35,549 bases of DNA from the NCBI GenBank assembly GCA_937895685.1, contig CALBMC010000066.1, positions 1 to 35,549 of the forward strand. Direction: 5' to 3'. This document shows positions 9,420-33,688 of this stretch, piece by piece; position 1 is the stretch's first letter, and each line of letters opens with the position of its first letter. The notes below the pieces were generated by a model. The model ran no database searches. It worked only from the letters and a program-made list of their open reading frames with translations, and was not told the origin of the DNA. The DNA is from an uncultured bacterium. GTDB lineage: Bacteria > Patescibacteriota > Minisyncoccia > Phycocordibacterales > UBA9973. Made by a program: the position numbers and the translations under genes.

Positions 9420-10139
9420 TTAAAGGCCTGCTATTGAGTAAAAGGACCAGCGCTTCTTTCCTTGTCTTTGAATTTTACCTTCTGAAACAAGCTTATTTAG
9501 CTCTCTTTGAATTGTCTTATCTGACACTCCTGGGAAGTAATCAACAATGTCTTTTGTTGCTACTTTGCCTTGTTTTTTTATAAGGGACAAAACTCGGTCA
9601 CTTCTTCCACTTTTTTCTGGCAGATTGAAAGACTTTGTTTTAACTTTTTCCACTGATTCACTAGAGTTCTTTAAATTAACATTTTGAGTTTTTTCAACAA
9701 TCTTTTGATCCTCTTTTGAGAAAGAAAATTCTTCTTTTGAAAAAGAGTTGTTTAGTATAGTTGAAATAGCATTGTTGATAACTTCAAAGTTGTTTTTTGA
9801 CATAAAACCAGAGATGCTTAGAACTCTCAAAAACGAAGAAATTTTACTCAAATCTGAAACCAAAATTTCTGAAAGACGAGAAGTCATATTTGCCTCACCG
9901 ACAACTATATTTGTGTCGTTTACTGTCTTTAAACAATTTAAACAAACTTCCCTAACTGAGAGTTTTATTGGGTCAATGTCGTTTATGTGATTTGTGGCAA
10001 GATACACAACCGCTGAGAGTCTTTCTATCTTGTCCCTTATAGAATCGTTAGCCTTATCAACCCTATAAATAGAAACTATCGGGAAAGTGCCTGTGCTACT
10101 TTTTGCTTCCAATTCGTTGTTGTCTTTTATGTTGTCCAT
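9420..10139 (-). CDS. DNA-binding protein with a C-terminal DeoR-type winged helix-turn-helix; N-terminal domain of unknown function
   Basis: The C-terminus RVLSLIKKQGKVATKDIVDYFPGVSDKTIQRELNKLVSEGKIQRQGKKRWSFY matches a wHTH pattern. I do not recognise the N-terminal 170 aa. Confidence 0.7.
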   Translation of the reverse strand: MDNIKDNNELEAKSSTGTFPIVSIYRVDKANDSIRDKIERLSAVVYLATNHINDIDPIKLSVREVCLNCLKTVNDTNIVVGEANMTSRLSEILVSDLSKISSFLRVLSISGFMSKNNFEVINNAISTILNNSFSKEEFSFSKEDQKIVEKTQNVNLKNSSESVEKVKTKSFNLPEKSGRSDRVLSLIKKQGKVATKDIVDYFPGVSDKTIQRELNKLVSEGKIQRQGKKRWSFYSIAGL

Positions 10140-19730: not shown

Positions 19731-19740
19731 CAGTGTATTG

Positions 19741-19749
19741 ATATTACCA
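19741..19749 (-). promoter_or_regulatory. extended -10 box (TGgTAATAT) 10 nt upstream of the metG ATG
   Basis: The minus strand reads ttcTGgTAATATcaatacactgATG, with no SD, implying a near-leaderless transcript. Confidence 0.35.
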
Positions 19750-19838
19750 GAAGTAGAATTAGAATAAAAATCAGTTATTTCCCTACTCGTCCCGTAGCAT
19801 CCTGAGCCTGTCGAAGGATTGCTATGGGATAAAATTGT

Positions 19839-20894: not shown

Positions 20895-20913
20895 ATTAAA
20901 ATATTAACACAGT

Positions 20914-22188: not shown

Positions 22189-23493
22189 TTAGTTTATTTT
22201 TGAATTTAAGTAAGAAGAAAGGTTTTCAATTTTTATTCTCTCTTGAGAACCTGTATCACGGTCTCGAACAGTCACTTCCCCATCCTCCAGTGTTTCGAAG
22301 TCTACAACGATACAAAACGGTGTTCCAATTTCATCTTGTCTTCTGTATCTTTTACCAATGTTTCCATTGTCGTCATAAGCTACATTTCCAAATTCTTTCT
22401 TTAAGCTTACAAATATTTCTCTAGCCTTTGAAACAAGTTCTGGTTTATTTTTCAATAGTGGCGACACGGCACAAAGAATTGGAGCAATAGAAGGCTTGAA
22501 TTTCAGATACTCACGGACCTCTCCATTCATTTCGTCTTCCCTGTAGGCTGACAACATAAGAGCAAGAAAAGCTCGGTCTGCACCAAAAGAAGGCTCAATG
22601 CAATGAGGAATTATTTTCACTCCATTTTCTTCGTCTACGTAATCAAGTTTATGAGTTTTTAAATCGTAATCTGTTCTATAAGCCAAACCGAAAAGTTCTT
22701 TTCTTCCAAAAGGATAATCAAACTCGAAATCTATTGTCTTCTTTGAGTAAAAGGCTCTGTCTTCATCTGAAACTAGTAGTTCATGAGTTTTTTCTGGATC
22801 AATTCCAACTTCTTCAATCCACTCAGTCATCGCGTCTTTCCAAAAATCAAAATACTTTTCTCCATCTTCTGGTCGAACAAAATACTCTATTTCCATCTGC
22901 TCGAACTCACGTTGACGAAAAAGAAAATCTCTCGGAGTTATTTCATTGCGAAAAGCCTTTCCAATTTGAGCAATCCCAAAAGGAAGCTTCGGGTGATATG
23001 CATCTACTACATTTTTGAAATTAACAAATATTCCTTGAGCTGTTTCTGGACGAAGGTATGAGATCGCTGAAGAATCTTCGGACGCTCCAACTTTTGTCTG
23101 GAACATCATATTAAACTGTTTTGGTTCACCCAATTTGCCACCACAGTCAGCACACTTTTCTTTGTCTTCTATTTGGTCGGCACGAAATCTTTTTTTGCAT
23201 TTTTCACATTCAACCATCGGGTCAGCAAAATTGTCCACATGTCCTGTTGCTTGCCAAACCTCTTGTCGCATTAAAATAGCGGCACGAATACCAAACATGT
23301 TTTCTTGGTTTGAAACAAACTTTGTCCACCAAGATGTTTTTATATTATCGAGCAGTTCATTTCCCAAGTGTCCATAATCAAAAGCCCCTGCCAATCCCCC
23401 ATATATCTCAGATCCCTGAAACACGAAACCGCGTCTCTTGCACAGAGACACGATTTTTTCCATCACATTAGAATTTTCTTGATTTTCTTTCAT
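22189..23493 (-). CDS. glyQS: glycyl-tRNA synthetase (homodimeric class II GlyQS type)
   Basis: Matches include IVSLCKRRGFVFQGSEIYGG..GAFDYGHLG, YLRPETAQGIFVNF, FRNEITPR, SFGADR and the anticodon-binding tail. Confidence 0.95.
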   Translation of the reverse strand: MKENQENSNVMEKIVSLCKRRGFVFQGSEIYGGLAGAFDYGHLGNELLDNIKTSWWTKFVSNQENMFGIRAAILMRQEVWQATGHVDNFADPMVECEKCKKRFRADQIEDKEKCADCGGKLGEPKQFNMMFQTKVGASEDSSAISYLRPETAQGIFVNFKNVVDAYHPKLPFGIAQIGKAFRNEITPRDFLFRQREFEQMEIEYFVRPEDGEKYFDFWKDAMTEWIEEVGIDPEKTHELLVSDEDRAFYSKKTIDFEFDYPFGRKELFGLAYRTDYDLKTHKLDYVDEENGVKIIPHCIEPSFGADRAFLALMLSAYREDEMNGEVREYLKFKPSIAPILCAVSPLLKNKPELVSKAREIFVSLKKEFGNVAYDDNGNIGKRYRRQDEIGTPFCIVVDFETLEDGEVTVRDRDTGSQERIKIENLSSYLNSKIN

Positions 23494-23497
23494 ATCT

Positions 23498-25411
23498 TTA
23501 ATTTATTACTTTTCCTCCTGTATCGGCAACCCCACTATCAGTATACAAACTGGTTGTTAAGGCGTTTCTGGTTGCAGACAGGCTTTCTCCTGTAAACTTA
23601 TCCTTTCCAGTCAAAGTAGTCTTATTTATAACAGTCGGAGCAATTCCAACCTGAGAAACTGAAGGGATAAGACCCACCTGGAAGGATACGCTTCTGTGAC
23701 CTGAAGTATATCCTACACCTTTTTGGATATCTCCCAAATCCCACCTTATAGTTCTAGATAATTCATCAAAAGTTACATTTTCACTACCAGGAGAGACCTT
23801 CCCCTTCCAAGAAACATAGTTTGGTAAGGTTGCCTCAGCGACTCCACCACCGATTGTATTAGAAGAGTTAGCAACAGTCCAAGTAACAGTATATGTTGTC
23901 TCATTGTCTGCCTTCGGTGGGATTGGTCCAGTGTTTGTAAACGGACCCTCCTTGTGTGTTACCTCACCTGTTATAGAAAGATTTGAATTTACTTTTGCTC
24001 TAGCGGTTGTTGCATTTGAAACAGATTCACTTACTCCATCTGAAGAAGCTTTTGTTCCTTTCATTGAAATAGAAATAACTACTTCTGGGTTTGATATCAA
24101 CCCAACCCCAGGAGAATACTGTGGAAGTGGAGTGAAGTTAAACGACAAGGTTCCAGTCTCACCAGGTTCAACTGATTGGAATTTTGTGTAATTTGTAGAA
24201 TCCCAAACAATCGTGTTATCAAATGATCGGAAAAATCCACTGTTTACATCGATACTGTTTTTATCATATGCACTTCCTGAAATTGTTGCAGTTATTTCCG
24301 CTCCTATAATTCTGGTTGGTAAGTTATTTACCCACTCGATTTCAACTTCTGAATTATCACCTGATGGAACGGACACTGACTCACCAGAAGAACCATTTAT
24401 TTTTACAGTAGAGGCAAAGAAAGGTTTAACAATGTTGACTGTATGCAAATAAGAAGTAAGCGTAATAGCTAGAGTACTTGGATCACCCGGCTCTTCAATT
24501 CCAGTTTCAAAACGGAAAACCCTATCATCTCCATCTTCGCCAGACAAAGTTCCTTTTATTTCAATCTTTTTATTTGCTCCAGGAGGAATGTCCCCAAAAG
24601 ACCAAACATTGTCCCCCACGGTTGGTGTGATATCTGATGATTTATACAAGAAACCAAAAGGATAAGTCGCCTTAACAGAAAGATCTTCTATAACCTCTTC
24701 TGAATTTGAACTTACATCAACAACCAAGGTTATCTCTTGGTTGGAAGCTATTGTTTCAGGTCCTGTGACAGAGACTAGTATTGGAGCACTTCTAAGTGTC
24801 ACATCAAAAGTTGCCTCTTTTACGAAAATGGCGCTTGAATTCTTAACTCTATATTCAAGAGTTGCTTTGATTGTTTTGATACTTCCCTCTTCTCCAAAAA
24901 GCAAAACCTCACTTTCTTCTGTGACAGTATCCCGAGAAGGAACCTCTCCCAAAGAAATTCGCTCTCTGACTATCTCCTCACCTCCTACGCCAGCACCTTT
25001 CGGATAACTTATAATCAAATCAGCAAGCTCAAGAGGTAAACCATTTTTGTTTTTTATTTCCACCTGAATCGGAAGAGTCTCACCTCCTTCAGCAAAAGCG
25101 TTTCCAAAAATATTTATTTCTATGTTTTTGTCAGAAACAGTTGTTGTTCCTCTAAATATAGAAAGCCCGGCAACTAATAAAGCTAGTACGAAAAAACCAA
25201 CAGAAAATAAAAAGAATTTCTTTATGTGATGGTGTTTTACTTTTGACATAATATTTTTTGGCTCTTCTACTTCCTCTTTTATGTTCCAATTATCCTGAGT
25301 TTCTGGTTTTTTCTTTTCGTGCAATCCTTCAAATCCGTGTTTTTTCTGAGAAAAAATATTTGTATAAAGCTTTCTATTGGCCTTCTCAAGCCGATCAATA
25401 TCTTCTTTCAT
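23498..25411 (-). CDS. large hypothetical membrane-anchored protein (N-in, single TM, beta-sandwich-repeat ectodomain of about 540 aa)
   Basis: The TM segment is FFLFSVGFFVLALLVAGLSIF. It is followed by repetitive T/S/V/G-rich beta-strand sequence resembling Ig/CARDB-like modules. I cannot name a family. Confidence 0.7.
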   Translation of the reverse strand: MKEDIDRLEKANRKLYTNIFSQKKHGFEGLHEKKKPETQDNWNIKEEVEEPKNIMSKVKHHHIKKFFLFSVGFFVLALLVAGLSIFRGTTTVSDKNIEINIFGNAFAEGGETLPIQVEIKNKNGLPLELADLIISYPKGAGVGGEEIVRERISLGEVPSRDTVTEESEVLLFGEEGSIKTIKATLEYRVKNSSAIFVKEATFDVTLRSAPILVSVTGPETIASNQEITLVVDVSSNSEEVIEDLSVKATYPFGFLYKSSDITPTVGDNVWSFGDIPPGANKKIEIKGTLSGEDGDDRVFRFETGIEEPGDPSTLAITLTSYLHTVNIVKPFFASTVKINGSSGESVSVPSGDNSEVEIEWVNNLPTRIIGAEITATISGSAYDKNSIDVNSGFFRSFDNTIVWDSTNYTKFQSVEPGETGTLSFNFTPLPQYSPGVGLISNPEVVISISMKGTKASSDGVSESVSNATTARAKVNSNLSITGEVTHKEGPFTNTGPIPPKADNETTYTVTWTVANSSNTIGGGVAEATLPNYVSWKGKVSPGSENVTFDELSRTIRWDLGDIQKGVGYTSGHRSVSFQVGLIPSVSQVGIAPTVINKTTLTGKDKFTGESLSATRNALTTSLYTDSGVADTGGKVIN

Positions 25412-25432
25412 GAAAATAATTATAACACGAAG

Positions 25433-26008
25433 TTATAAATGGCTTTCGTATATTGCGTTTTTTATAGCTTCCAAAATCTTTTTTCTTGGCAAAGACAGAG
25501 GCGTATCCTCATTTACAGAATATTCGCTTGCAAGAATATCTTTAAATTCTAAATTATTAGCTATATAACCAAGCCTAAAAAGAGACCTGAGGTAAAAAAC
25601 CAATTCTATCTCACCAAGTTTTTCAGAAGAATGCCCCTTCTTTGTCGAAAAAAGGAGTGCTTCCAAATCAGAGTAAATTCCCTTTTCCTCTTTCTCCTTG
25701 TCTACCATTCTTTTTATAAAACGAAACGATTTGGAAACAACTCTGCGAGTTTCTTGATCTAAGATATTTATTCGGTCAACTGGTGTTGCTGAAATAATTC
25801 TCCAAACCTGTTTTCCTCTAACCAAGTCAACTTTTGAAATAGAGCCAATTTGAAGAGAGTATTTTAATTTTGACTTTGCACTACGAACACTCTTTGCAAC
25901 AGCACTTATCATCCCCAATTCTTTGGTAAAAAGCAAAATTGTCATGTCAGCTTCCCCAGTCGGGAAAGTGTCCAAAACTATAGAATTAGTGTGATAAATA
26001 TGATGCAT
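25433..26008 (-). CDS. recO: RecO-like DNA repair protein (short, lacking a zinc finger)
   Basis: The N-terminal OB pattern TNSIVLDTFPTGEADMTILLFTKELGMISAVAKSVRSAKSKLKYSLQ..S...V.LVRGK resembles the RecO N-terminal domain. The protein is 191 aa and contains no Cys. Confidence 0.6.
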   Translation of the reverse strand: MHHIYHTNSIVLDTFPTGEADMTILLFTKELGMISAVAKSVRSAKSKLKYSLQIGSISKVDLVRGKQVWRIISATPVDRINILDQETRRVVSKSFRFIKRMVDKEKEEKGIYSDLEALLFSTKKGHSSEKLGEIELVFYLRSLFRLGYIANNLEFKDILASEYSVNEDTPLSLPRKKILEAIKNAIYESHL

Positions 26009-26010
26009 AA

Positions 26011-26592
26011 TTATTCAATCATTTCCTTAAGTAATTGTGTCGCTTCCGGGAGATTTTCTATGTTGTCACTTTCAGTAAAATGGCCCATCTCGTGCATAAC
26101 CAAAGTTTTTGCCCCTAGTTTTTCTTCTAAAATATTTTTATTCTCTTCTACTGGAACATAGGGATCATCGTCAGAGAAAATAGCAGAAACTTTGTTTGTA
26201 TGTGTAGAAACTTTTGCAAAATCTATCGGGGTTTCGATCCAAGGTTTTGCAATTTCTGGATCCTCATCTTCATCTAGATTCTCTAGTGTAAGGTAAAACC
26301 AAGGTGCAATGAGCAAGACGCCTCCAACTTTTTTATCTGCTGGCAGAGTTTCAATAAATCGAATAACATTCTGACAACCGACACTGTGACCGACAAAATA
26401 CGTATCTTCATTTACCTCCCCTGTTGCTTCACCTAGTGCAAATACCCAGTCTTCTATTGTCGGAGTGTCCGGATGTGGCATAAGTGGCGCAATAACTTCG
26501 TATCCGGAAGATTGCATTTGTTCCCTTATCCATTTGAGCATCGGCTCATCTGGAGAACCAGACCAACCATGTGCGATGATTATTTTTTTCAT
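26011..26592 (-). CDS. alpha/beta serine hydrolase of the YdeN/RBBP9 type
   Basis: IIAHGWSGSP is present, with the nucleophile elbow GHSVG and the C-terminal HEMGHF. At about 190 aa it matches the typical length of that family. Confidence 0.8.
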   Translation of the reverse strand: MKKIIIAHGWSGSPDEPMLKWIREQMQSSGYEVIAPLMPHPDTPTIEDWVFALGEATGEVNEDTYFVGHSVGCQNVIRFIETLPADKKVGGVLLIAPWFYLTLENLDEDEDPEIAKPWIETPIDFAKVSTHTNKVSAIFSDDDPYVPVEENKNILEEKLGAKTLVMHEMGHFTESDNIENLPEATQLLKEMIE

Positions 26593-26594
26593 AT

Positions 26595-27104
26595 TTATTC
26601 TAACGGTTTAAAATTTTGTAAAAAAGAAAATATCTCTTGTCCAGAATTAAGAACAGAATAATTTTCATAATCTTTTTGGGAAAGACAATAAACTTTAATC
26701 CCATTTTCAATCATTGCATCAACCGTTGAATCAAACTCTATTTTGTTTGATACTTTAACTGGATTTTCAGAGGCCCATTCGTATCCATCGCCTTCGTCAA
26801 AGGCTTCATTTGGCAATTCATAAACTGCACCACCTTTATCTCTGTCTCTCAACTCTTGTTCAGTTAGTGGAAACACAGCAAAAACAACGCCTTTTATTTC
26901 GCCAGAGGAATAAGAAAAACCTCTCTCTTTACTCTTAAACATATAAGGTAATGCTTTCACAAGAGAATCTGTAGCAAAAACAAATTCTTTTTTCTCCTTG
27001 TCTTTTTGTCTTGTATTTTCTCTTGGCTCAAAAATCTCTATGTTTCTATTACCAGAACCATGATACAAAACAGGAGGTTTTTCAATTCTGTTTTCTTTTT
27101 CCAT
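26595..27104 (-). CDS. hypothetical 169-aa protein; possible minimal ADP-ribosyltransferase-fold (H-Y-E type) protein, unverified
   Basis: Its start codon shares one base with the ileS stop (TAATG, 27106-27102). Motifs are VLYHGS (13-17), EFVFATDSLVKALPY (40-54) and AVYEL (93-97). Confidence 0.6.
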   Translation of the reverse strand: MEKENRIEKPPVLYHGSGNRNIEIFEPRENTRQKDKEKKEFVFATDSLVKALPYMFKSKERGFSYSSGEIKGVVFAVFPLTEQELRDRDKGGAVYELPNEAFDEGDGYEWASENPVKVSNKIEFDSTVDAMIENGIKVYCLSQKDYENYSVLNSGQEIFSFLQNFKPLE

Positions 27105-30100
27105 TACTTTTCTATCTCAACTTTAAATCTAAAATCTTCCGGCTCATCAACAATCAATATAATTTCTCCACTTTCAGACTCAACGAAATCAACCTCTTTA
27201 GCAGAAACCATTTTCATAAACAGTTCTTCATTCTCTCTGATTAAAGCTTCACCCTTTGTGTCTGTTGAGACTGTTATTTTGACCAAATCTCTTGCATCCA
27301 TTCCGAGTTTCTTTCGAAGCTCTTGAATAGAGCGAACCAGTTCTCTGAAGTTTCCTTCTTTCTTGAGTTCTGGAGTAATTGTCGTGTCCAAGTTTATTGT
27401 TCCTTCTGGCAGTGACGCATCGTAGAACATTTCTTTAACATTAACCTCATCCAAAATTATTTCTTCATAATCTTTTCCTAAAGTCTCTCCACTAAAGTGA
27501 ACTTTTGAAAGTGGCTGACGAACTTTTACAGAAGATTTTTGTCGGGCTTCCAAAATCTTGGTAACAACATCTCTGGCTATTTCCATTTCTTTTAGCTCAT
27601 GGGCTTCTTCAAGTTCTTCAGCAAGATTATCTAGTCCTCCCCAATCAAGTAAGTGCACGCTTTCCGCCTCTTCTGGCAATTTAAGCTCTTGCCAAACAAT
27701 CTCTGACAAAAACGGCATTATTGGAGCAACTATTCTTGAGAATTCGCGAAGAACGTAAAACATTGTTACTTTTGCAAATTTGTCTCCGTCTTTCATTCTT
27801 TCTCTAGAACGACGTAAATACCAAGTAGAAATATCATCAACAAATTTTTCAACTGGACGAGAGGCTTCAACAAGATCATACTTTTCCATTCCAGACTGAA
27901 CTTCTGTTTTGAATTTATGCAAAAGAGCAACTGCCCATTTGTCCAAAACATTTTCTAACGAATGTGCATCAAACTCTGTCCCTTCAACAGAAGGATCTCT
28001 GTACAAATTATAGAACTGAAGAACGTTCAATGTTTTCTGACAAACACCTTTATATATTCTATCTACTGCCTTTTCATCAAAGTTTGCATCTTCACCTTTC
28101 ATTAGAGGACTCGACATAAGGTATAGACGAAGTGGATCAACTCCATATTTATCAAACAATATCCATGGATCTGGGAAATTTCCTTTTGACTTAGACATTT
28201 TCTGACCATCGGAGGCAAGGAGAGTTCCAGTGGTTACAACATTCTTAAATGGCGCACGGCCAAAGAGAATAGTTGAGATTGTGTGCATGTAGTAGAACCA
28301 GGTTCGTGTCTGTGCCACATATTCAACTACGAAATCAGCTGGGAACTTTTCTTTTTTCCAAGATTCATTTTCAAAAGGATAGTGTTCCTCCGCAAAAGGC
28401 ATAGAACCAGATTCGAACCAGCAATCAATAACTTCTGGAATTCTCTTGTATTCATTTCCTTCTTCATCTTCCAAAACTATTTCATCAATGTAAGGTCGAT
28501 GTAAATCAAGTTCGAAATTATCATTGTGAGGAAGTGGAACGAAGTCTAGCTTCTTAACCATTCCGTTTTCAAAATATGTAAACCCTATATTTTCTTGAAT
28601 CATCTCCAGTGCCTCTTCCCCGTTCAATCCATAAGCACCAGAAGTCATAGCCCAAAGTGGTCCTCCATGAGAAACTATCAAAAACTTTTTTCCAGAATAT
28701 GTTTTTTCAAGATCATACAAAACAGCTGTCATTCTCTTTTTTACATCAGCGGGACTTTCATCTCCGTTATCGTATTCCTTATAGAAATTTTCTACTGTCT
28801 TTGGGTGCTCCTTAAGAAATTCATCCCAAGTGCGCCCTTCCCAAGAATGAGCTCCAAATTCTCCAAGTCTCTCGTCTACTATTATCTGTGCATCTCGAAG
28901 AACTAAAATGTCTTTTACAATTTCAGCTGTCTCCTTTGCACGAATAAAGTTCGATGTGATTATAAAATCTGGCACAAAATCCAAGTTCTTAGCAGAATCC
29001 TCAACTTGAATTTTTCCTTCTTTTGTAAGATTGAAAGGTGATTTTGCGTTTGTACAAACAAGCCCTCTAATGTTTCCTTCAGTCTCACCGTGGCGCATAA
29101 GATAATATTCGTTCCCTGACTTTTTTGTTTTTTCTCGAAGATCTGTAATTGAAGAGATGAAAATAACCTTTCCGTCTTTTGATTTCCAGAATGGAAGAGG
29201 GCTCGCCCAATATCTATTTCGAGAAATGGTCCAATCAGGAGCTGTATCTAAAACCGCAGGGAATCTTCCCTCTTTCAAGTGTGCAGGTATCCAATTTATA
29301 TTTTTAGATTCTTCTTTAACTTGTTCTTTTATTTTCTGAATTGCCACAAACCAAGAAGGTAGAGCGTAATAAAGAAGTGGTGTATCACAGCGATAACAAT
29401 GTGGGTATGAGTGAATTATTTTTTCTTTTGCAAAAAGTGCTCCTGTTCCGGCTAAATACTTAATTATCAAAATATCAGAAGCTTGATGATCTTCTTTTGG
29501 TTTTACTTTTACTCCAACGAAATCTTTTACTTCATCTACAAAAGTTCCATCCGGATTAACGTGACGAATAAACGGAATATTGTGCTTATTTGCCAAATTC
29601 ATATCATCTTCTCCAAAAGCCGGAGCTTCGTGAGCAATTCCAGTTCCGGTGTCGGCAGTTACAAAATCAGCATGCCAAACTCTCCAAATATTTTGTTTAT
29701 TTGGCATATCAATATCTTTATAATAATCAAATGGAGGTTTATAGGCTTTTCCTATCAATTCTTCACCAAGAAATTCACCAACAACTTCATATTCCTTGTC
29801 TTTCAAAACAGTCGCAACTCTATCACGTGCAATTATTAAAACATCTTCTCCAACTTTAACTTTCTGATAGGTTAGTTTTTCATTTATCGCAATAGCAGTA
29901 TCTCCCGGCAAACTCCATGGTGTTGTAGTCCAAGCCAAAAGATAAGTCCCCGGTTCATCAATAAGTTCAAATTTCACATAAACAGATATGTCTGTTATGT
30001 CCTTATAGCTGTTGTCCATTGCAATCTCAGAGTTTGCAATCGGAGTCTCACAACGAGGACAATATGGCAGAACTCTAACACCCTCATAAAGAAGATCCTT

Positions 30101-30625
30101 TTTTGCAAGCTCAGATAAAGCCCACCAAACACTTTCAATGAAAGTGTTGTCCATTGTTTTGTATCCATTATCAAAATCAACCCATCTTCCAAGTCTCTCA
30201 ATTGTTCCCTTCCATTCTTCTGTATATCCGAGAACTTTACTTCTTGCATGTTCAACAAAGTTCTTAACACCAAGCTTTTCTATCTGATGTCTTCCGGAAA
30301 CACCAAGGTCTTTTTCAACTATATTTTCAATTGGTAACCCATGACAATCCCAACCCCATCTTCGGTCAACATGGAATCCGCGCATTGTTTTATACCGAGC
30401 AATAGCATCTTTGGCGGTAGATCCAAGCAAGTGTCCGTAGTGCGGAAGACCGGTAGCAAAAGGTGGTCCATCATAAAATATTTCATCCCCTTCAGCAGAT
30501 TCTTTATTCAAACTTTTTTCAAAAATATTTTTTTCCTTCCACAGTTTTAGAGCGCTTTCTTCAAGTGAAGCGTAATCTGATTTAAATCTAAAATTATCAG
30601 TTTTTTCTTCTTTGGGTTTATCCAT
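27104..30625 (-). CDS. ileS: isoleucyl-tRNA synthetase (eukaryote/Thermus-like type) carrying an internal histidine-phosphatase domain
   Basis: Motifs are PHYGH (61-65), the editing motifs TTTPWSLP and TGTGIAHEAP, DWTISRNRYW (464-473), DCWFESGSMPF (734-744) and KMSKS (809-813). Confidence 0.95.
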   Translation of the reverse strand: MDKPKEEKTDNFRFKSDYASLEESALKLWKEKNIFEKSLNKESAEGDEIFYDGPPFATGLPHYGHLLGSTAKDAIARYKTMRGFHVDRRWGWDCHGLPIENIVEKDLGVSGRHQIEKLGVKNFVEHARSKVLGYTEEWKGTIERLGRWVDFDNGYKTMDNTFIESVWWALSELAKKDLLYEGVRVLPYCPRCETPIANSEIAMDNSYKDITDISVYVKFELIDEPGTYLLAWTTTPWSLPGDTAIAINEKLTYQKVKVGEDVLIIARDRVATVLKDKEYEVVGEFLGEELIGKAYKPPFDYYKDIDMPNKQNIWRVWHADFVTADTGTGIAHEAPAFGEDDMNLANKHNIPFIRHVNPDGTFVDEVKDFVGVKVKPKEDHQASDILIIKYLAGTGALFAKEKIIHSYPHCYRCDTPLLYYALPSWFVAIQKIKEQVKEESKNINWIPAHLKEGRFPAVLDTAPDWTISRNRYWASPLPFWKSKDGKVIFISSITDLREKTKKSGNEYYLMRHGETEGNIRGLVCTNAKSPFNLTKEGKIQVEDSAKNLDFVPDFIITSNFIRAKETAEIVKDILVLRDAQIIVDERLGEFGAHSWEGRTWDEFLKEHPKTVENFYKEYDNGDESPADVKKRMTAVLYDLEKTYSGKKFLIVSHGGPLWAMTSGAYGLNGEEALEMIQENIGFTYFENGMVKKLDFVPLPHNDNFELDLHRPYIDEIVLEDEEGNEYKRIPEVIDCWFESGSMPFAEEHYPFENESWKKEKFPADFVVEYVAQTRTWFYYMHTISTILFGRAPFKNVVTTGTLLASDGQKMSKSKGNFPDPWILFDKYGVDPLRLYLMSSPLMKGEDANFDEKAVDRIYKGVCQKTLNVLQFYNLYRDPSVEGTEFDAHSLENVLDKWAVALLHKFKTEVQSGMEKYDLVEASRPVEKFVDDISTWYLRRSRERMKDGDKFAKVTMFYVLREFSRIVAPIMPFLSEIVWQELKLPEEAESVHLLDWGGLDNLAEELEEAHELKEMEIARDVVTKILEARQKSSVKVRQPLSKVHFSGETLGKDYEEIILDEVNVKEMFYDASLPEGTINLDTTITPELKKEGNFRELVRSIQELRKKLGMDARDLVKITVSTDTKGEALIRENEELFMKMVSAKEVDFVESESGEIILIVDEPEDFRFKVEIEK
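28526..29110 (-). other. histidine phosphatase superfamily (PGAM/CobC-like) domain inserted within IleRS (about residues 506-700)
   Basis: The domain contains LMRHGETEGN (R511/H512), FIRAKETAEIV (R562), DERLGEFGAHSWEGRTW (E585) and LIVSHGGPL (H653). It is in frame with IleRS on both sides. Confidence 0.75.
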
Positions 30626-30662
30626 ATAAGTACTTTAATATTATCAGCTTGGTCTTTAAACT

Positions 30663-30715
30663 AAAAATGCCCCTCGGGAGGGCAACGATAAAAAATCGGG
30701 TTCCTCCCTAATAAA
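30663..30715 (-). promoter_or_regulatory. T-box-like antiterminator/terminator switch in the ileS leader
   Basis: The minus strand reads UUUAUUAGGGAGGAACCCGAUUUUUUAUCGUUGCCCUCCCGAGGGGCAUUUUU. AGGGAGGAACC resembles the T-box core AGGGUGGNACC. GGGAGG can pair with CCUCCC, which is also the 5' half of the terminator stem GCCCU/GGGGC followed by U5. Confidence 0.4.
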
Positions 30716-30776
30716 GCGGGCGAATAATAATTGAATTATTGATAACCTGATTCATAAGATGAGTCTAACACTTTTG

Positions 30777-30823
30777 GCCAAAAAACAAAAACCTCACAGC
30801 AACCAAATGGTCGACGTGAGGGT
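30777..30823 (-). terminator. hairpin plus U-run terminator after the 77-aa ORF
   Basis: The stem ACCTCAC/GTGAGGG(T) (30791-30797 / 30816-30823) has an inner ACCA/TGGT pairing. On the minus strand it is followed by TTTTTGTTTTTT. Confidence 0.55.
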
Positions 30824-30832
30824 GTGCCCGGC

Positions 30833-31066
30833 CTAAGCGGGGGTATTTGCTAATTTATGAGCCAGATCGGGTCTGGCTTCAGAAAAGTTTTGAATAGTTT
30901 CAGCTGGAATATTCGCCTTGGCTTTCTGGGCCTTAGCAAGCATGGCATTCCACTGTTTCTCAACTTCCTTATCTTTTTTTGTTTTGTTGCTCAAAAGCAA
31001 ACAAAATAATCTGTGCGCAACTTCAAAGTGCGTCTTGTTCGGATTTACGGCATTGTTACTACTCAT
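30833..31066 (-). CDS. small hypothetical protein (77 aa, Lys/Ala-rich, predicted helical)
   Basis: It is on the same strand as the 274-aa ORF, 70 nt downstream of it, and has its own terminator. No family recognised, and coding status is moderately uncertain. Confidence 0.45.
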   Translation of the reverse strand: MSSNNAVNPNKTHFEVAHRLFCLLLSNKTKKDKEVEKQWNAMLAKAQKAKANIPAETIQNFSEARPDLAHKLANTPA

Positions 31067-31136
31067 AAAATATTCTTTTTTGGTTTCCTATGTTTATACC
31101 ACATATTCAGATTTTTGCAACAAAAAAGGCCCCTAC

Positions 31137-31961
31137 TCAAAAGTGGCCAATATTCTCTACCGTATTTATGATTACACCATTCTCGTCTTCAATGTGGAGC
31201 TGGCACTCGATACCAACTTTATTTTCAAAGGTTGCCCCACCGGACTTTTCCCAACCTTCGAACATACAAATAGAATCGATATATCCCGAACGGATAATTC
31301 GTCCGAAAAAATTTTGGAAAATTGTTTCAGTTGAAAATCCGGATGCAATTAACTTCTCAATAAACCGGTCAAAAGGTAGCTGGTCGAAAACCAAATGATT
31401 TTTTGAAAATTCATGAAGCTTTTTAAAAAATATTTTCAAATTTTCATTACGATAACTACCATCTTCAGTACCATTGCGAAGCGGACCAGAACAAAACCAC
31501 ACTTTTTGATCAACAGCAGGTGAAGTCGGCACCGAGGCCATCTTTAATACCTGTATTCTTCCCTTTGCGAGAGAATTTATTTTCTCTAAAATTCGCAAAG
31601 CAATTTTAAAAGCCTCTTCAAGGCCTTCGGAATTAAGGGGCAGACTTTCAACTGCCTCAATATCTTTGTGCGACCAATATTCATGTCGCATGAAATATTG
31701 GCTGAAGTATGGCCAGTATCCGGCCTTTCTCATCTCTTCTAAAACATTATACTCATCCCTTTCTTTTTCTCCGAGTTTAATAAACTCTATTTTTCGATTG
31801 TTTCCATTTGAGAAAAACAAAGCAGCGCGAAGGTCGATTGTGAAGTCTCCTTCTTCTTTAAAAAGTTTGAACTCGGGATGCATTGATGGTTTTGCTTCTA
31901 TTGCAACTTTCCAGGCTAATTCTCTGAGCTTTTGCTCATTTTCTTTGATTGTTAGGAACAT
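31137..31961 (-). CDS. hypothetical fusion protein: unknown N-terminal domain (about 1-150) plus a C-terminal DUF4406 / nucleoside 2-deoxyribosyltransferase-like domain (about 152-258)
   Basis: The C-terminal half reads KVWFCSGPLRNG...N...F and IDSICMFEGWEKSGGATFENKVGIECQLHI. This matches the DUF4406 pattern as I remember it: (V/I)Y(I/L)AGP..G near the start of the domain and L.GWE.S.GA..E near its end. Confidence 0.65.
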   Translation of the reverse strand: MFLTIKENEQKLRELAWKVAIEAKPSMHPEFKLFKEEGDFTIDLRAALFFSNGNNRKIEFIKLGEKERDEYNVLEEMRKAGYWPYFSQYFMRHEYWSHKDIEAVESLPLNSEGLEEAFKIALRILEKINSLAKGRIQVLKMASVPTSPAVDQKVWFCSGPLRNGTEDGSYRNENLKIFFKKLHEFSKNHLVFDQLPFDRFIEKLIASGFSTETIFQNFFGRIIRSGYIDSICMFEGWEKSGGATFENKVGIECQLHIEDENGVIINTVENIGHF

Positions 31962-32008
31962 AGATTTTAATTTTTCTTTACTCTAACACGAAAATCAGAA
32001 AAATCAAA

Positions 32009-33688
32009 CTACATCTTTTCAGGCACTTCTATTCCGAGAATATTGAGTCCGTTAGTTAAAACAATTTTTGTAGCCAAAGTTAGGGCAAGATTGTATTTTG
32101 CTTCACTATTTTCTAAATCAAGAATTTTAGTAGACCCATACCAACTATTGAAAGTTTGAGACAAGTTGAGCAGATAAGTAGAGATGTGATGTGGAGCCCA
32201 CTCCTCTATTGCAAGGGATACAACTTTTGGAAATCTAGAAATCATTTTTTCTAATTCACCAGTCTCTGTATCTGTTTGAATAATTTCAGGTTCAAGGCCA
32301 GCTTCCTTTGCTTTCATTAAAACAGAATTAGCTCTAACGGCAGTATATTGAAGATATGGGCCTGAGTCTCCTTCGAAAGAAAGTGAGGTATCTGGATCAA
32401 AGTTTATATCTTTACCCGCCATTGATTTTAAAATTGAAAATTTCAAAGAAGCGATCGCCACTCTATCAGCGGTCTCAACGTCTAATTCTGAAGACTTTTC
32501 TTTCACTTCGGCCAAAACAACATCAAGAACATCAGTTGCAAGCGGAACTCCACCAAGTCGTGAAGACATCTTTTGTCCTTTGAAACTCATTCTTCCGTGA
32601 GTTCGATGAACTGTTTTTTCTTTCCAGTCTTTATTTATTTCACTAACCGCTTCTAAGACAACACTGTAGTATGGCGCCTGTTGGTTATCAGTTATTAGAA
32701 TTGAAATATCTGGAGAAAATCTTTCGAATTTAAGGAAAAGAAGACCGATATCTTTTGCTTCATAGGTTGGAAATCCTTCTTTGTTAATGAAAACTCTAGT
32801 GTGTAATCCCTTCTCTTCTCCTTTGAAAATAATAGCTCCTTCACTTTCTTCAAAGACTTTGCCGATGTTTTCTCGAACAATTCTCTCTCCTTGTTCACCT
32901 GCCTCACTTTCAAAAATAAAATCTTCGAATTCTGAGCCAAGTCTTTTTGTTATATCTTTGAAATAAGAAAGATTTATTTCTTTACATTTATTGTAAAGAT
33001 CAAGAATCTCTCCAGGTGTCTTCTCGTACAAAACTTTTGTTATTTCTTTTACTTTTTGAACTACACTTTCATCCTCGTCGTACAGCTTTGTCCCTCGAAC
33101 ATAACAATCTCCTAAGTATGTAAGCTTTTCTCTTAGTGTAGGAAATGAATCGAGCTTTCCCTCTCCATCCTCAATTAAGATAAATAAAGCTTTCCCAATC
33201 CCTAAAGAAACATCAGATGGATAAGAAATTTCTGTAACGCTAGCACCAGAGAATTTAGCAAGTCTCGAGATTGCTTCCCCTATTGTGTTATTCATCACAT
33301 GTCCAATATGAAATGGCTTAAATAGATTTGGACTTGAATGTTCAACTAGTATTTTTTTATTTTTATGTTTTTCTGAAATTCCATAATTTTCCTTTTGCTC
33401 CAAAACATTTTTTATTTCACTAGAAAAATATTCTTTTGATAAAAAGAAGTTTATGAACCCAGGTTGCACCGCTTCTACTTTAGAGAGATATTCTGGTTTT
33501 ATTTTTTCTATTTCGGATACAATCTTTTGAGCTAAATCAAGCGGTTTTTCTCCTTCTCTTTTGGCCAAAACCATGGCGACACTAGTCGAAAAATCTCCGT
33601 TTTTATAATCTTGCGGAAACTCTATCTTCGGTTCTATGTCATCTATTTTAACAGCAGATTTTATTAGCTCTTTCAGCTTTTCTTCCAT
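32009..33688 (-). CDS. argS: arginyl-tRNA synthetase
   Basis: The HIGH motif is SSPNLFKPFHIGHVMN, the MSxR motif is KMSSRLG, and the DALR anticodon-binding C-terminus ends in M. Confidence 0.95.
   Translation of the reverse strand: MEEKLKELIKSAVKIDDIEPKIEFPQDYKNGDFSTSVAMVLAKREGEKPLDLAQKIVSEIEKIKPEYLSKVEAVQPGFINFFLSKEYFSSEIKNVLEQKENYGISEKHKNKKILVEHSSPNLFKPFHIGHVMNNTIGEAISRLAKFSGASVTEISYPSDVSLGIGKALFILIEDGEGKLDSFPTLREKLTYLGDCYVRGTKLYDEDESVVQKVKEITKVLYEKTPGEILDLYNKCKEINLSYFKDITKRLGSEFEDFIFESEAGEQGERIVRENIGKVFEESEGAIIFKGEEKGLHTRVFINKEGFPTYEAKDIGLLFLKFERFSPDISILITDNQQAPYYSVVLEAVSEINKDWKEKTVHRTHGRMSFKGQKMSSRLGGVPLATDVLDVVLAEVKEKSSELDVETADRVAIASLKFSILKSMAGKDINFDPDTSLSFEGDSGPYLQYTAVRANSVLMKAKEAGLEPEIIQTDTETGELEKMISRFPKVVSLAIEEWAPHHISTYLLNLSQTFNSWYGSTKILDLENSEAKYNLALTLATKIVLTNGLNILGIEVPEKM

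What the first reader, a model, noticed from the sequence alone, without database searches (positions are those of the whole stretch)
28526..29110. Catalytically intact histidine-phosphatase (PGAM-like) domain nested inside the isoleucyl-tRNA synthetase catalytic core
The 1173-aa IleRS has all class-I landmarks in the normal order. In the IleRS sequences I can recall (Thermus-type: ...PIW, about 35 aa, HRPYVD...), only a short connective or zinc peptide links DWTISRNRYWASPLPFW (464-480) to LHRPYIDEIV...DCWFESGSMPF (708-744). Here about 190 extra residues (506-700) sit between them, and they read as a complete histidine-phosphatase superfamily domain. The domain contains LMRHGETEGN (R511, phospho-acceptor H512), SNFIRAKETAEIV (R562), DERLGEFGAHSWEGRTWDEF (E585 region) and FLIVSHGGPLW (H653). 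Every catalytic residue of the RHG family is present, so the insert is probably an active phosphatase rather than a decayed relic. The reading frame is continuous, and IleRS sequence resumes exactly where expected. This argues for a true domain insertion rather than a neighbouring gene or a chimera. I am not aware of any described aminoacyl-tRNA synthetase with an embedded phosphatase. Possible roles are all speculative: removal of 2'/3'-phosphates from tRNA ends, hydrolysis of ApnA-type or other phosphorylated nucleotide by-products of the synthetase, or phospho-dependent regulation. The downstream coupled ART-like ORF (26595-27104) may be functionally linked.
Basis: partly seen in the sequence, partly recalled or inferred. 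Interest (0 to 1): 0.85.

Follow-up and report, generated by a model that had tools for sequence, protein, structure and literature searches.

The report
Phosphatase domain nested inside isoleucyl-tRNA synthetase
A complete, apparently active phosphatase domain sits inside the catalytic core of the enzyme that loads isoleucine onto tRNA; this design is shared by over a hundred species of tiny Patescibacteria, relatives keep the same phosphatase as a separate gene beside the synthetase gene, and its substrate is unknown.

Summary
ORF 27104-30625 (-) encodes a 1173-aa type-2 IleRS. About 200 residues (505-705) form a complete His_Phos_1 domain (Pfam E 1e-32) inserted in the CP3 subdomain, where relatives have a linker of about 5-8 residues. 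It is not a chimera: independent assemblies give the same 1173-aa protein. All 120 best database hits and at least 125 species-level Patescibacteria genomes share the architecture at the same site. The catalytic residues R511, H512, R562, E589 and H653 are essentially invariant in about 350 embedded copies, including tandem copies. AlphaFold models the domain confidently as a PhoE-like fold.

New here: the closest free-standing relatives are encoded between argS and an insert-less ileS in about 23-25 of 28 loci, often with overlapping stop and start codons. The nested and separate forms almost never co-occur. This suggests that the domain derives from ileS's neighbouring gene and is its long-term partner.

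The substrate is unknown. It is not a dPGM, CobC or SixA by curated cut-offs. My best guess (about 0.5) is a phosphatase working with the synthetase. The main rival (about 0.35) is an unrelated housekeeping phosphatase captured in a permissive loop. The ART-like ORF is not linked (0 of 80 loci). I found no published description.

The parts
27104..30625 (-). ileS: 1173-aa type-2 isoleucyl-tRNA synthetase with the nested phosphatase domain (stop codon 27104-27106)
   Evidence: Single ORF. TIGR00392 815 bits against cut-off 621. PF00133, Anticodon_1 and DUF5915 present. Best PDB match is IleRS2 8c8v, E 1.5e-203. AF2 model has pLDDT 86.6 and pTM 0.81, with Foldseek TM 0.81 to 8c8v.
29114..30625 (-). 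IleRS N-terminal part (residues 1-504): first half of the Rossmann fold, CP core, CP1 editing domain, CP2 and the first half of CP3, ending in ...DLREKTKKSG
   Evidence: Aligns to 8c8v 14-460 and 6ldk 17-499. The CP3 of Candida IleRS is residues 473-534 (PMC7191050). The TTTPW and GTGxxH editing motifs and Cys189/192/410/413 are invariant in 116 sequences.
30431..30442 (-). HIGH signature (H62-Y-G-H65)
   Evidence: Translation gives PHYGHLLG. Invariant in 116 relatives.
28511..29113 (-). Inserted segment, residues 505-705 (about 200 aa): a whole histidine-phosphatase protein plus a 12-20 aa C-terminal linker (DFVPLPHNDNFE)
   Evidence: Boundaries come from insert-less relatives and from alignment with the free-standing homologues, whose residue 5 (N-x-Y-Y-L-M-R-H-G) matches N505 onward. 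The same site is used in all embedded relatives examined.
28571..29104 (-). His_Phos_1 (PF00300) domain, residues 508-685
   Evidence: Pfam E 1.1e-32. Closest PDB sequence is PhoE 1EBB/1H2E, E 2e-11. AF2 model of the insert alone has pLDDT 92 and pTM 0.90. Top Foldseek hit is PhoE 1h2e, TM 0.74.
29090..29095 (-). Codons for R511 and H512 (RHG motif; H512 is the predicted phospho-acceptor)
   Evidence: Codons CGC and CAC. R and H are present in 335 of 335 embedded copies that cover the position.
28940..28942 (-). Codon for R562 (second phosphate-binding Arg)
   Evidence: Conserved in 346 of 346 copies.
28859..28861 (-). Codon for E589 (predicted general acid/base)
   Evidence: 344 E, 7 D and 1 A among 352 copies.
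28667..28669 (-). Codon for H653 (second catalytic His)
   Evidence: 367 H and 1 Y among 368 copies.
27107..28510 (-). IleRS C-terminal part (residues 706-1173): rest of CP3 (LDLHRPYID...), second half of the Rossmann fold, anticodon-binding domain and C-terminal DUF5915 domain
   Evidence: Aligns to 8c8v 483-849 and onward. Anticodon_1 at 895-1041 and DUF5915 at 1076-1161.
28187..28201 (-). KMSKS signature (K809-S813)
   Evidence: Translation gives GQKMSKSKGN. K809, K812 and S813 are invariant and M810 and S811 nearly invariant among the 116 aligned sequences.
32009..33688 (-). argS (arginyl-tRNA synthetase), the conserved upstream neighbour. In the split-gene relatives the free-standing phosphatase gene lies between argS and ileS.
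   Evidence: Pfam Arg_tRNA_synt_N, tRNA-synt_1d and DALR_1. argS is present upstream in 60 of 80 related loci. The order argS|His_Phos|ileS is seen in L081, L087 and about 20 more loci.
25433..26008 (-). recO-like gene, a synteny marker downstream of ileS (not functionally implicated)
   Evidence: RecO_N E 4.9e-14. Present downstream in 60 of 80 related loci and in the split-form loci L081, L114, L120 and L124.

Best explanation
Shown: the window encodes an intact type-2 IleRS, with HIGH, KMSKS, the editing motifs and the anticodon-binding domain all conserved. A whole PhoE-like histidine phosphatase (about 200 aa) is spliced into the CP3 subdomain, about 30 residues after the APDWTISRNRYWA peptide, which in yeast IleRS lines the pocket for the tRNA 3'-CCA end. 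The phosphatase keeps the full catalytic set R511/H512/N518/R562/E589/H653. These residues are essentially invariant across hundreds of copies whose overall identity is only 30-45%, so phosphoryl-transfer chemistry is under selection. The protein therefore probably has three active sites: aminoacylation, editing and phosphatase.

Shown: the nearest free-standing relatives of the insert are encoded between argS and an insert-less ileS, frequently with overlapping stop and start codons. The nested and separate forms are almost mutually exclusive.

Inferred: the domain derives from ileS's upstream neighbour, for example by tandem duplication of the gene pair followed by two in-frame deletions. 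The phosphatase is a long-standing partner of IleRS, probably a physical complex in the split form and a covalent tether in the nested form.

Inferred mechanism (my commitment): H512 attacks a phosphomonoester, forming a phospho-histidine intermediate that E589 helps to hydrolyse. The substrate is a phosphorylated species that would otherwise block the charging cycle. My first guess is a 2'/3'-phosphate or opened cyclic phosphate on the tRNA acceptor end, which the flexible CCA end could deliver much as it shuttles between the synthetic and editing sites. Second guesses are a phosphorylated nucleotide ligand or a phosphorylated residue of the synthetase itself. Rough probabilities: active phosphatase about 0.85; functionally coupled to IleRS about 0.5; tRNA 3'-end substrate specifically about 0.15-0.2.
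For: Domain identity and fold.
Insertion boundaries and CP3 location: plus PMC7191050 and PMC7955072 (the CP2-3 linker ARDWNVSRNRYWG forms part of the reveromycin/tRNA-site pocket).
Catalytic residues: invariant in 335-367 embedded copies and in every copy of the tandem arrays.
Junction motifs: KKSGN-x-Y and F-x-P-x-PHN are conserved (S503 and N505 invariant; K502, G504, Y507, F695, P699 and H700 at least 90% in 116 sequences). AF2 gives pLDDT above 90 across both junctions and pTM 0.81 for the whole chain, which argues for a fixed rather than floppy attachment.
Breadth: all 120 best hits carry PF00133 plus PF00300. At least 125 species-level genomes carry it, named Nomura-, Zambryski-, Taylor-, Adler-, Wolfe- and Yanofskybacteria or Paceibacterota.
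Split form: argS|His_Phos|ileS in L081, L087 and L088. In the metagenome scan, argS is upstream in 25 and ileS downstream in 23 of about 28 distinct loci, with gaps mostly between -4 and +16 nt. More distant His_Phos genes (27-32% identity) are never next to argS or ileS.
Complementary distribution: 79 of 80 nested-form loci have no separate His_Phos gene in the flanks.
IleRS integrity: HIGH, KMSKS and editing motifs are invariant.
Against: No experiment and no geometric measurement supports coupling. I could not read model coordinates, so I do not know whether the phosphatase pocket faces the CCA path.
The closest structures are all small-molecule phosphatases: PhoE, phosphoserine phosphatases, a riboflavin-pathway phosphatase and CobC. 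To my knowledge no histidine phosphatase is known to act on RNA ends.
The embedded domain is acidic (median pI 5.7), which is not what a nucleic-acid-binding module usually looks like.
Conserved gene order in compact Patescibacteria genomes also includes functionally unrelated genes, such as recO next to ileS, so adjacency alone is weak evidence.
Some free-standing homologues lack ileS downstream (L082, L100/L101, L105).
Confidence: 0.5

Rival explanations
1. Independent housekeeping phosphatase captured by its neighbour. The His_Phos gene happened to lie upstream of ileS in a frozen housekeeping cluster. A duplication-and-deletion accident placed it in a permissive surface loop (CP3). The separate copy was lost, and the nested copy is kept only because the cell needs that small-molecule phosphatase. 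There is no mechanistic link to aminoacylation.
For: All the nearest structures are small-molecule phosphomonoesterases. CP3 is a structurally variable subdomain whose topology differs between IleRS lineages (PMC7191050), so it is plausibly permissive. The argS-ileS-recO-glyS order is conserved without any obvious functional logic. The complementary distribution of the nested and separate forms is what simple replacement predicts. Some free-standing homologues are not followed by ileS.
Against: The association with ileS persists in two different genetic configurations across relatives that share only 34-60% identity. Stop/start overlaps suggest stoichiometric co-expression. The junction residues are conserved and modelled as ordered. 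Tandem amplification to 2-4 catalytically intact copies inside IleRS is odd for an unrelated metabolic enzyme. More distant His_Phos genes show no such linkage.
Confidence: 0.35
2. Regulatory or sensor module rather than a turnover enzyme. The domain binds a phosphorylated metabolite, or is itself phosphorylated on H512 (as dPGM is by 2,3-BPG). Through CP3, whose base flanks the active site, it tunes IleRS activity according to metabolic state.
For: CP3 anchor residues border the active site (PMC12077802; PMC7955072). The attachment is modelled as rigid. Conservation of the phosphate pocket is equally expected for a phospho-sensor.
Against: The general acid E589 and N518 are also conserved, which is typical of turnover enzymes. 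The free-standing form in relatives cannot act through a covalent CP3 link. There is no precedent that I know of.
Confidence: 0.12
3. Artefact: an assembly chimera or gene-calling fusion of a phosphatase gene with ileS fragments.
For: None beyond the a priori possibility for a metagenome-assembled contig. Read mapping could not be done.
Against: The frame is continuous with no stop. IleRS resumes exactly at the expected residue. The identical 1173-aa sequence is held by NCBI and ENA, and nine further 1173-aa proteins in its 90% cluster come from NCBI, ENA, Logan and JGI. Eighty species-level loci and all 120 best database hits have the same join. There is no GC discontinuity.
Confidence: 0.01

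Closest known systems
Type-2 (archaeal/eukaryote-like) isoleucyl-tRNA synthetase, e.g. Priestia megaterium IleRS2 (PDB 8C8V), Thermus thermophilus IleRS (1ILE), yeast and Candida IleRS (8WND, 6LDK)
   Same: It has the same domain order: Rossmann fold with HIGH and KMSKS, CP core with a Zn-binding Cys pair, CP1 editing domain, CP2, CP3, anticodon-binding domain and a DUF5915-type C-terminal domain. Sequence E-values reach 1e-203 and the model's TM-score is 0.81-0.89.
   Different: CP3 here carries a 200-aa phosphatase where those enzymes have a short connection. This lineage has also lost the CP3 zinc-knuckle cysteines that T. thermophilus and several insert-bearing relatives keep (PMC7191050).
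PhoE/YhfR broad-specificity phosphatase of Geobacillus stearothermophilus (PDB 1H2E/1EBB) and similar small histidine phosphatases (phosphoserine phosphatase PspA 4IJ5, CobC 6E4B/6NRU, riboflavin-pathway HFP 9MMH)
   Same: It shares the fold and size (about 190-210 aa), the RHGE-x-x-N motif, and the second Arg, Glu and His at equivalent positions. Identity is 24-30%, TM about 0.66-0.74 and Foldseek E about 1e-12.
   Different: Those are free-standing, usually oligomeric, small-molecule enzymes. This one is nested in a monomeric synthetase, or in relatives encoded between two synthetase genes. It reaches no curated equivalog cut-off, so its substrate cannot be transferred by homology.
CP1 editing domain of class Ia synthetases (IleRS, ValRS, LeuRS)
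   Same: It is the precedent for a second hydrolytic active site inserted into the Rossmann fold of the same enzyme and served by the mobile tRNA 3' end (established knowledge; described for IleRS in PMC11685878).
   Different: CP1 is universal, is inserted at a different point (the CP core) and hydrolyses aminoacyl esters. The phosphatase is lineage-specific, lies in CP3 and uses phospho-histidine chemistry. Any service by the tRNA 3' end is unproven.
Other bifunctional proteins with a CobC/PhoE-like histidine phosphatase fused to a nucleic-acid enzyme, e.g. the mycobacterial RNase H/acid phosphatase (NCBIfam NF005567, PRK07238)
   Same: The phosphatase half of that model is among the best NCBIfam matches of the insert (66-70 bits) and of the free-standing homologue P0244 (83 bits).
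   Different: That protein is an end-to-end fusion with RNase H, not a nested insertion in a synthetase. The scores are far below its cut-off of 326.
NCBIfam NF040702 'ileS_w_GNAT' (IleRS containing an N-acetyltransferase domain)
   Same: It shows that IleRS with an extra enzymatic domain is a recognised category in annotation pipelines.
   Different: The extra domain is of a different kind, and the match offsets (query 316-489 against profile 495-663) place it N-terminal of residue 316, so at a different position. The query scores 329 bits against a cut-off of 1999.

Membership tests
Histidine phosphatase superfamily, branch 1 (Pfam PF00300 His_Phos_1) | Profile match above the Pfam gathering score over most of the domain | tested here: met
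   113.8 bits against 21.7, residues 508-685 against profile positions 2-179 of 194.
Histidine phosphatase superfamily, branch 1 (Pfam PF00300 His_Phos_1) | N-terminal RHG motif with the nucleophilic His, plus a second Arg, a Glu general acid and a second His | tested here: met
   R511-H512-G513, R562, E589 and H653 are present. They align with the PhoE catalytic positions and are conserved in 335-367 embedded copies.
Histidine phosphatase superfamily, branch 1 (Pfam PF00300 His_Phos_1) | Alpha/beta fold of the dPGM/PhoE type | tested here: met
   AF2 pLDDT 92 and pTM 0.90. All top 50 Foldseek hits are histidine phosphatases or dPGMs, with PhoE at TM 0.74.
Histidine phosphatase superfamily, branch 1 (Pfam PF00300 His_Phos_1) | Phosphatase (or mutase) activity through a phospho-histidine intermediate | not testable with these tools
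   This needs an enzyme assay on the recombinant protein and on an H512A mutant.
Cofactor-dependent phosphoglycerate mutase (dPGM; TIGR01258, NF038349 and the PRK models) | Score above the curated cut-off of a dPGM model | tested here: not met
   NF038349 scores 58.7-62.8 bits against 225. TIGR01258 scores 20 against 81.7. The free-standing relatives score 84-86 against 225.
Cofactor-dependent phosphoglycerate mutase (dPGM; TIGR01258, NF038349 and the PRK models) | dPGM substrate-binding residues after the catalytic Glu (E-R-x-Y) and after the second His (H-G-N), as recalled from E. coli GpmA | tested here: not met
   The sequence reads E589-F-G-A and H653-G-G-P. The reference residues are from my own knowledge and were not re-derived here.
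Alpha-ribazole phosphatase CobC (TIGR03162) | Score above the equivalog cut-off | tested here: not met
   75-79 bits against 162.9.
Phosphohistidine phosphatase SixA (TIGR00249) | Score above the equivalog cut-off | tested here: not met
   26.8 bits against 74.5, with only the N-terminal 70 residues matched.
Isoleucyl-tRNA synthetase (TIGR00392 ileS) | Score above the equivalog cut-off | tested here: met
   815.3 bits against 621.4.
Isoleucyl-tRNA synthetase (TIGR00392 ileS) | Class I signatures HIGH and KMSKS, CP1 editing domain and anticodon-binding domain in the canonical order | tested here: met
   H62-YGH65 and K809-MSKS813. Editing motifs TTTPW (233-237) and GTGxxH (327-332) are invariant. 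Anticodon_1 lies at 895-1041.
Isoleucyl-tRNA synthetase (TIGR00392 ileS) | Type-2 subtype: DUF5915-type C-terminal domain and closest similarity to IleRS2 and eukaryotic IleRS rather than type 1 | tested here: met
   PF19302 at 1076-1161. 8c8v (IleRS2) has E 1.5e-203 against 1ffy (type 1) at 2.6e-83.
Isoleucyl-tRNA synthetase (TIGR00392 ileS) | Ile-tRNA(Ile) synthesis activity | not testable with these tools
   This needs an aminoacylation assay. I could not check whether the genome lacks a second ileS, because only a 35.5-kb contig is available.
NCBIfam NF040702 ileS_w_GNAT | Score above the cut-off and presence of a GNAT domain | tested here: not met
   329 bits against 1999. There is no acetyltransferase Pfam hit in the window protein.

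The most novel reading that the evidence does not exclude
IleRS of Paceibacteria-type Patescibacteria is a three-site enzyme. The CP3-embedded histidine phosphatase (or, in sister lineages, a separately encoded subunit made from the argS-hp-ileS operon) receives the flexible tRNA acceptor end and removes a blocking 2'/3'-phosphate, or otherwise dephosphorylates a ligand of the charging pocket. This would be a built-in 'end-healing' or licensing step for aminoacylation, a function not known for any aminoacyl-tRNA synthetase or for any histidine phosphatase.
Probability: 0.17. Interest if true: 0.9.

Novelty: new variant of a known kind. Interest (0 to 1): 0.68.

Why it matters
Aminoacyl-tRNA synthetases are among the best-studied enzymes. 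The inserted catalytic modules known so far (editing domains) all serve translational fidelity. Here a conserved, catalytically intact phosphatase sits inside the catalytic core of an essential synthetase and is shared by a large radiation of ultra-small bacteria, which points to an undescribed activity attached to tRNA charging. The separate-gene form in relatives gives a natural experiment: the two polypeptides can be tested for complex formation.

If the phosphatase acts on tRNA ends or on the synthetase, that would be a new step in tRNA charging or repair. If it is an unrelated enzyme, it is still a clean, datable example of how a neighbouring gene becomes a nested domain in an essential protein. 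It would also be a warning for annotation, because these proteins are currently labelled only 'class I tRNA ligase family protein'.

Tried and rejected
1. Misassembly or chimera: rejected. Read mapping itself was not possible.
2. Link to the ART-like ORF 26595-27104: rejected. There are no homologues in 80 related loci, only sub-threshold Pfam hits (DUF6886 at 25.6 against 27; ART-PolyVal at 18.6 against 31.2), and no PADLOC or NCBIfam hit.
3. dPGM, CobC, SixA or phosphoserine-phosphatase identity: none reaches a curated cut-off.
4. Defence-system relation of the insert: no PADLOC hit.
5. Single versus multiple insertion or fission events: neighbour-joining trees of the phosphatase domain and of the IleRS body have internal branches of only 0.01-0.03 and mix the two forms. 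I treat them as unresolved and draw no conclusion from them.
6. The first homologue search, with a 340-aa junction query, returned only proteins of 595 aa or less. The tool appears to cap hit length at about 1.75 times the query, so the many '500-aa' hits are fragments and not evidence for split ileS genes. The full-length query fixed this.
7. Equivalence of the insertion site with the LeuRS leucine-specific domain: considered from memory and dropped, because that domain lies directly before KMSKS whereas CP3 lies one beta-alpha unit earlier.
8. Isoelectric point as a clue to RNA binding: the free-standing neighbours of aaRS genes are basic (median pI 9.7), but so are unrelated free-standing His_Phos proteins (9.2). 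Only the acidity of the embedded form (5.7) stands out, and that is not diagnostic.
9. Geometry of the phosphatase pocket relative to the CCA path: could not be measured, because model coordinates are not exposed.
10. dN/dS: not attempted, because all available DNA relatives are species-level representatives with saturated synonymous sites.
Full report
**1. What is in the window**

The finding lies in a single uninterrupted ORF, 27104..30625 on the minus strand, of 1173 codons. The product is an isoleucyl-tRNA synthetase. NCBIfam TIGR00392 scores 815 bits against a cut-off of 621. Pfam finds tRNA-synt_1, Anticodon_1 and the DUF5915 C-terminal domain typical of type-2 IleRS. The best solved relatives are Priestia megaterium IleRS2 (8c8v, E 1.5e-203), yeast and Candida IleRS and Thermus IleRS. 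Type-1 enzymes are much further away. HIGH (H62-YGH) and KMSKS (809-813) are present, and the editing-site motifs are invariant among relatives.

**2. The extra segment is a histidine phosphatase domain**

- Pfam His_Phos_1 matches residues 508-685 with E 1.1e-32 (113.8 bits, cut-off 21.7) over almost the whole profile. The tRNA-synt_1 match is split in two around it.
- Against 8c8v, query 483 aligns with residue 460 and query 703 with residue 483.
- Insert-less relatives in the databases jump from query 498-502 to 705-707 with 5-8 residues in between.
- A pairwise alignment with an insert-less Patescibacteria IleRS reads ...ELERKSG-IKVS-DLHKD... where the window has ...DLREKTKKSG-[N505...E705]-LDLHRPY....

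The insertion is therefore about residues 505-705 (nt 28511-29113).

**3. Location of the insertion**

By alignment to Candida IleRS (query 18-500 = 6ldk 17-499) the insertion lies inside the CP3 subdomain. CP3 is residues 473-534 in Candida (PMC7191050) and 459-526 in yeast (PMC7955072). That literature describes CP3 as structurally variable between IleRS lineages. It also shows that the CP2-CP3 linker ARDWNVSRNRYWG, here APDWTISRNRYWA at 462-474, lines the reveromycin pocket that overlaps the binding site of the tRNA 3' end. The insertion starts about 30 residues after that peptide.

**4. It is not an artefact and not a one-off**

- The exact 1173-aa sequence is held by NCBI and ENA. Its 90% cluster contains 11 members, 10 of them of 1173 aa, from NCBI, ENA, Logan and JGI.
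- A full-length search returned 120 best hits of 1144-1232 aa at 55-91% identity. Every one carries PF00133 plus PF00300. Their source names are only 'class I tRNA ligase family protein' or 'isoleucyl-tRNA synthetase', from Paceibacterota, Nomurabacteria or Parcubacteria MAGs.
Eighty loci were fetched. Depositors named them Nomura-, Zambryski-, Taylor-, Adler-, Wolfe- and Yanofskybacteria, Minisyncoccia, Paceibacterota and generic Patescibacteria labels. Most carry one continuous 1100-1300-codon frame.
- In every embedded relative examined the domain starts 34-37 residues after the R-Y/F-W-A/G motif, and IleRS resumes at (E)LDxHRPYID.
- Several lineages keep the CP3 zinc-knuckle cysteines on both sides of the insert. 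The window's lineage has lost them.
- GC content is flat across the region.

**5. Is the phosphatase alive?**

I built a profile of the domain and aligned every copy found here: 381 embedded copies or fragments and 64 free-standing ones. Wherever the position is covered, the embedded copies give these counts:

| Residue | Conservation in embedded copies |
|---|---|
| R511 | 335 of 335 |
| H512 | 335 of 335 |
| R562 | 346 of 346 |
| E589 | 344 E, 7 D, 1 A |
| H653 | 367 H, 1 Y |
| N518 | 323 of 335 |

This holds although the insert is only 30-45% identical across the family, against 55-60% for the whole protein. AlphaFold2 with 116 sequences gives pLDDT 86.6 and pTM 0.81 for the whole chain. 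Residues 501-700 score 84-96, and both junctions are above 90. The insert alone gives pLDDT 92 and pTM 0.90. Its best structural matches are PhoE 1H2E (TM 0.74), phosphoserine phosphatases, a riboflavin-pathway histidine phosphatase, CobC, and then the dPGMs. PhoE is also the best match by sequence. No curated equivalog cut-off is reached for dPGM, CobC, SixA, PspA or GpmB. The dPGM-type substrate residues that I recall (E-R-x-Y, H-G-N) are absent. The fold and chemistry are therefore assigned, but the substrate is not.

**6. The new piece of evidence: the separate-gene form**

A search with the insert alone returned only eight short free-standing His_Phos proteins. The best three (P0241, P0242, P0244) are 188-194 aa at about 36% identity. 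Their genomic contexts are striking.

- On a 355-kb contig, P0244 lies at argS 4379-5998 | His_Phos 6001-6585 | ileS 6590-9454. That ileS encodes 954 aa, has no insert and has an intact CP3 zinc knuckle. An ORF, recO and a large protein follow, which is the same synteny as in the window.
- P0242 shows argS | His_Phos | ileS with 2-nt gaps.
- P0241 shows argS | His_Phos only.
- The alignment shows that the free-standing protein from its fifth residue (N-x-Y-Y-L-M-R-H-G) corresponds to N505 onward. Essentially the whole protein is present in the insert.

I then scanned metagenome contigs with an alignment of these three proteins and typed the neighbours. Among about 28 distinct loci with a free-standing member of this subfamily (34-100% identity to P0244):

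- argS is immediately upstream in 25.
- An insert-less ileS of 933-983 aa is immediately downstream in 23.
- The argS-phosphatase gap is mostly -1 to +5 nt, and the phosphatase-ileS gap is -4 to +195 nt (mostly 16 nt or less).
- The exceptions are L082, L100/L101 and L105. Two further loci end too soon to tell.

More distant His_Phos genes picked up by the same scan (27-32% identity) are never next to argS or ileS. Conversely, 79 of 80 nested-form loci have no separate His_Phos ORF in their 6-kb flanks. In those loci argS, recO, the 637-aa protein and glyS keep their order around ileS (60, 60, 60 and 49 of 80 loci). So one phosphatase subfamily is tied to ileS in two mutually exclusive configurations.

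**7. Interpretation**

Shown:
- An intact IleRS carries a complete, conserved PhoE-like phosphatase in CP3.
- The attachment points are conserved and confidently modelled.
- The architecture is old and widespread.
- Relatives have the same phosphatase as a translationally coupled neighbour of ileS.

Inferred:
- The insert derives from that neighbour. One route is a tandem duplication of the phosphatase-ileS pair followed by two in-frame deletions, which would yield N-half / phosphatase / C-half. Adjacency makes this route accessible.
- The phosphatase is a functional partner of IleRS.

I put about 0.85 on an active phosphatase and about 0.5 on functional coupling to the synthetase. I put only about 0.15-0.2 on the specific idea that the mobile tRNA acceptor end delivers a 2'/3'-phosphorylated terminus to it, by analogy with the shuttling between the synthetic and editing sites. 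Other coupled options are dephosphorylation of a nucleotide ligand or of a phosphorylated residue of the synthetase.

The main rival (about 0.35) is neutral capture of an unrelated small-molecule phosphatase in a permissive loop. The small-molecule nature of all structural neighbours favours it, as does the fact that conserved gene order in these compact genomes also links unrelated genes. The acidic pI of the embedded domain (median 5.7, against 9.7 for the free-standing neighbours) does not suggest a nucleic-acid-binding surface. However, unrelated free-standing homologues are also basic (9.2), so this clue is weak. A sensor or regulatory role (about 0.12) and an artefact (about 0.01) complete the list.

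**8. What could not be settled**

- Neighbour-joining trees of the domain and of the IleRS body have very short internal branches and interleave the two forms. The number and direction of insertion or fission events is open.
- The taxonomy of the split form is uncertain. Several such loci carry bacterial recO, but one insert-less IleRS cluster is labelled 'Candidatus Pacearchaeota archaeon' at NCBI.
- The orientation of the phosphatase pocket relative to the CCA path could not be measured, because model coordinates are not exposed.

**9. Comparison with what is known, and novelty**

Both components belong to well-known families; the membership tests give the details. The combination is what is new. 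Five differently worded full-text searches found no paper describing an IleRS, or any aminoacyl-tRNA synthetase, with a histidine phosphatase domain. The sequences themselves are public, and their Pfam content is precomputed in the protein database searched here. NCBIfam does recognise a different IleRS-plus-enzyme architecture (ileS_w_GNAT). I therefore class this as a new variant of a known kind.

On the other side, the breadth of the architecture, the conservation of catalysis and the newly found split-gene form make it a well-founded and experimentally tractable oddity. My score is 0.68.

**10.

The suggestion that the downstream ORF 26595-27104 is linked is not supported. Its ATG does overlap the ileS stop (TAATG). 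But it has only sub-threshold DUF6886 and ART-PolyVal hits, no PADLOC or NCBIfam hit and no homologue in any of the 80 related loci.

Noticed in passing
Related proteins P0276, P0288, P0305, P0315, P0362, P0381 and P0386; locus L157 2787-7160: Some IleRS relatives carry two tandem His_Phos_1 domains at the same CP3 site, giving proteins of 1379-1468 aa. One (P0276, probably truncated) carries four. Every complete copy keeps RH(G/A)-N-R-E-H except the third copy of P0276, which has Ala in place of the Asn.
   Followed up: partly
L170 5001-8201 (protein P0385, 1066 aa): This IleRS-like protein has an IS200-type Y1 transposase domain (residues 340-461) in the editing region, a His_Phos_1 domain (680-854) and a C-terminal GNAT domain (935-1063). 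It has no anticodon-binding domain. Its genomic context is different (ProRS and an SLH-domain protein nearby). It may be an IleRS paralogue with another function.
   Followed up: partly
window 26595-27104 (-): This 169-aa ORF has an ATG that overlaps the ileS stop codon (TAATG). Its only hits are weak and sub-threshold (DUF6886, ART-PolyVal), and it has no homologue in 80 related loci. It looks like a lineage-specific accessory gene wedged between ileS and recO.
   Followed up: yes
window 31137-31961 (-): This 274-aa ORF lies between argS and ileS, exactly where relatives have the free-standing phosphatase gene. It is not a phosphatase. It has no family assignment apart from a marginal DUF4406 hit, and no homologue in the related loci.
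   Followed up: partly
window 18291-33688 (-): Four aminoacyl-tRNA synthetase genes lie on one strand within 15 kb: metG-like 18291-19730, glycyl 22189-23493, ileS and argS. The order argS - ileS - recO - 637-aa protein - glyS is conserved in 49-60 of 80 related loci.
   Followed up: partly
L049 4546-7875, L067 4570-7833; proteins P0011, P0022, P0034, P0103, P0374: A subset of embedded phosphatase domains lacks about 30 residues (profile positions about 88-120) between the catalytic Glu and the second His. This is the region that forms the substrate-covering cap in PhoE-like enzymes, so their active site may be more open.
   Followed up: no
window 28511-29113 versus free-standing homologues (L081 6001-6585 and others): The embedded phosphatase domains are acidic (median pI 5.7, n=92). 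The free-standing copies next to argS and ileS are strongly basic (median 9.7, n=28). Unrelated free-standing His_Phos proteins are also basic (9.2).
   Followed up: partly
window 29171-29188 and 28448-28480 (CP3 flanks of the insert); L001, L069, L076, L093, L123, L125: The window's lineage has lost the four CP3 zinc-knuckle cysteines (WKSKDGK... and ...LEDEEGNEYKR). Several other insert-bearing lineages, and the insert-less L081 enzyme, keep C-x-x-C ... C-x-C around the same site.
   Followed up: partly
L094 5579-8377 (IleRS cluster P0401-P0408): An insert-less IleRS that follows a free-standing phosphatase gene belongs to a cluster labelled 'Candidatus Pacearchaeota archaeon' at NCBI. Either the split arrangement also occurs in DPANN archaea or those MAGs are misclassified.
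   Followed up: no
L060 1577-2410: This is the only nested-form locus (1 of 80) that also has a separate ORF with a His_Phos match (278 aa, E 5e-11), lying upstream of its ileS.
   Followed up: no
window 303-6768: A cell-envelope glycan cluster lies at the left end of the window: a Bac_transf sugar transferase, two large Wzy_C (O-antigen-ligase-like) membrane proteins and a GT4 glycosyltransferase. A 626-aa protein with a peptidoglycan-binding domain follows.
   Followed up: no
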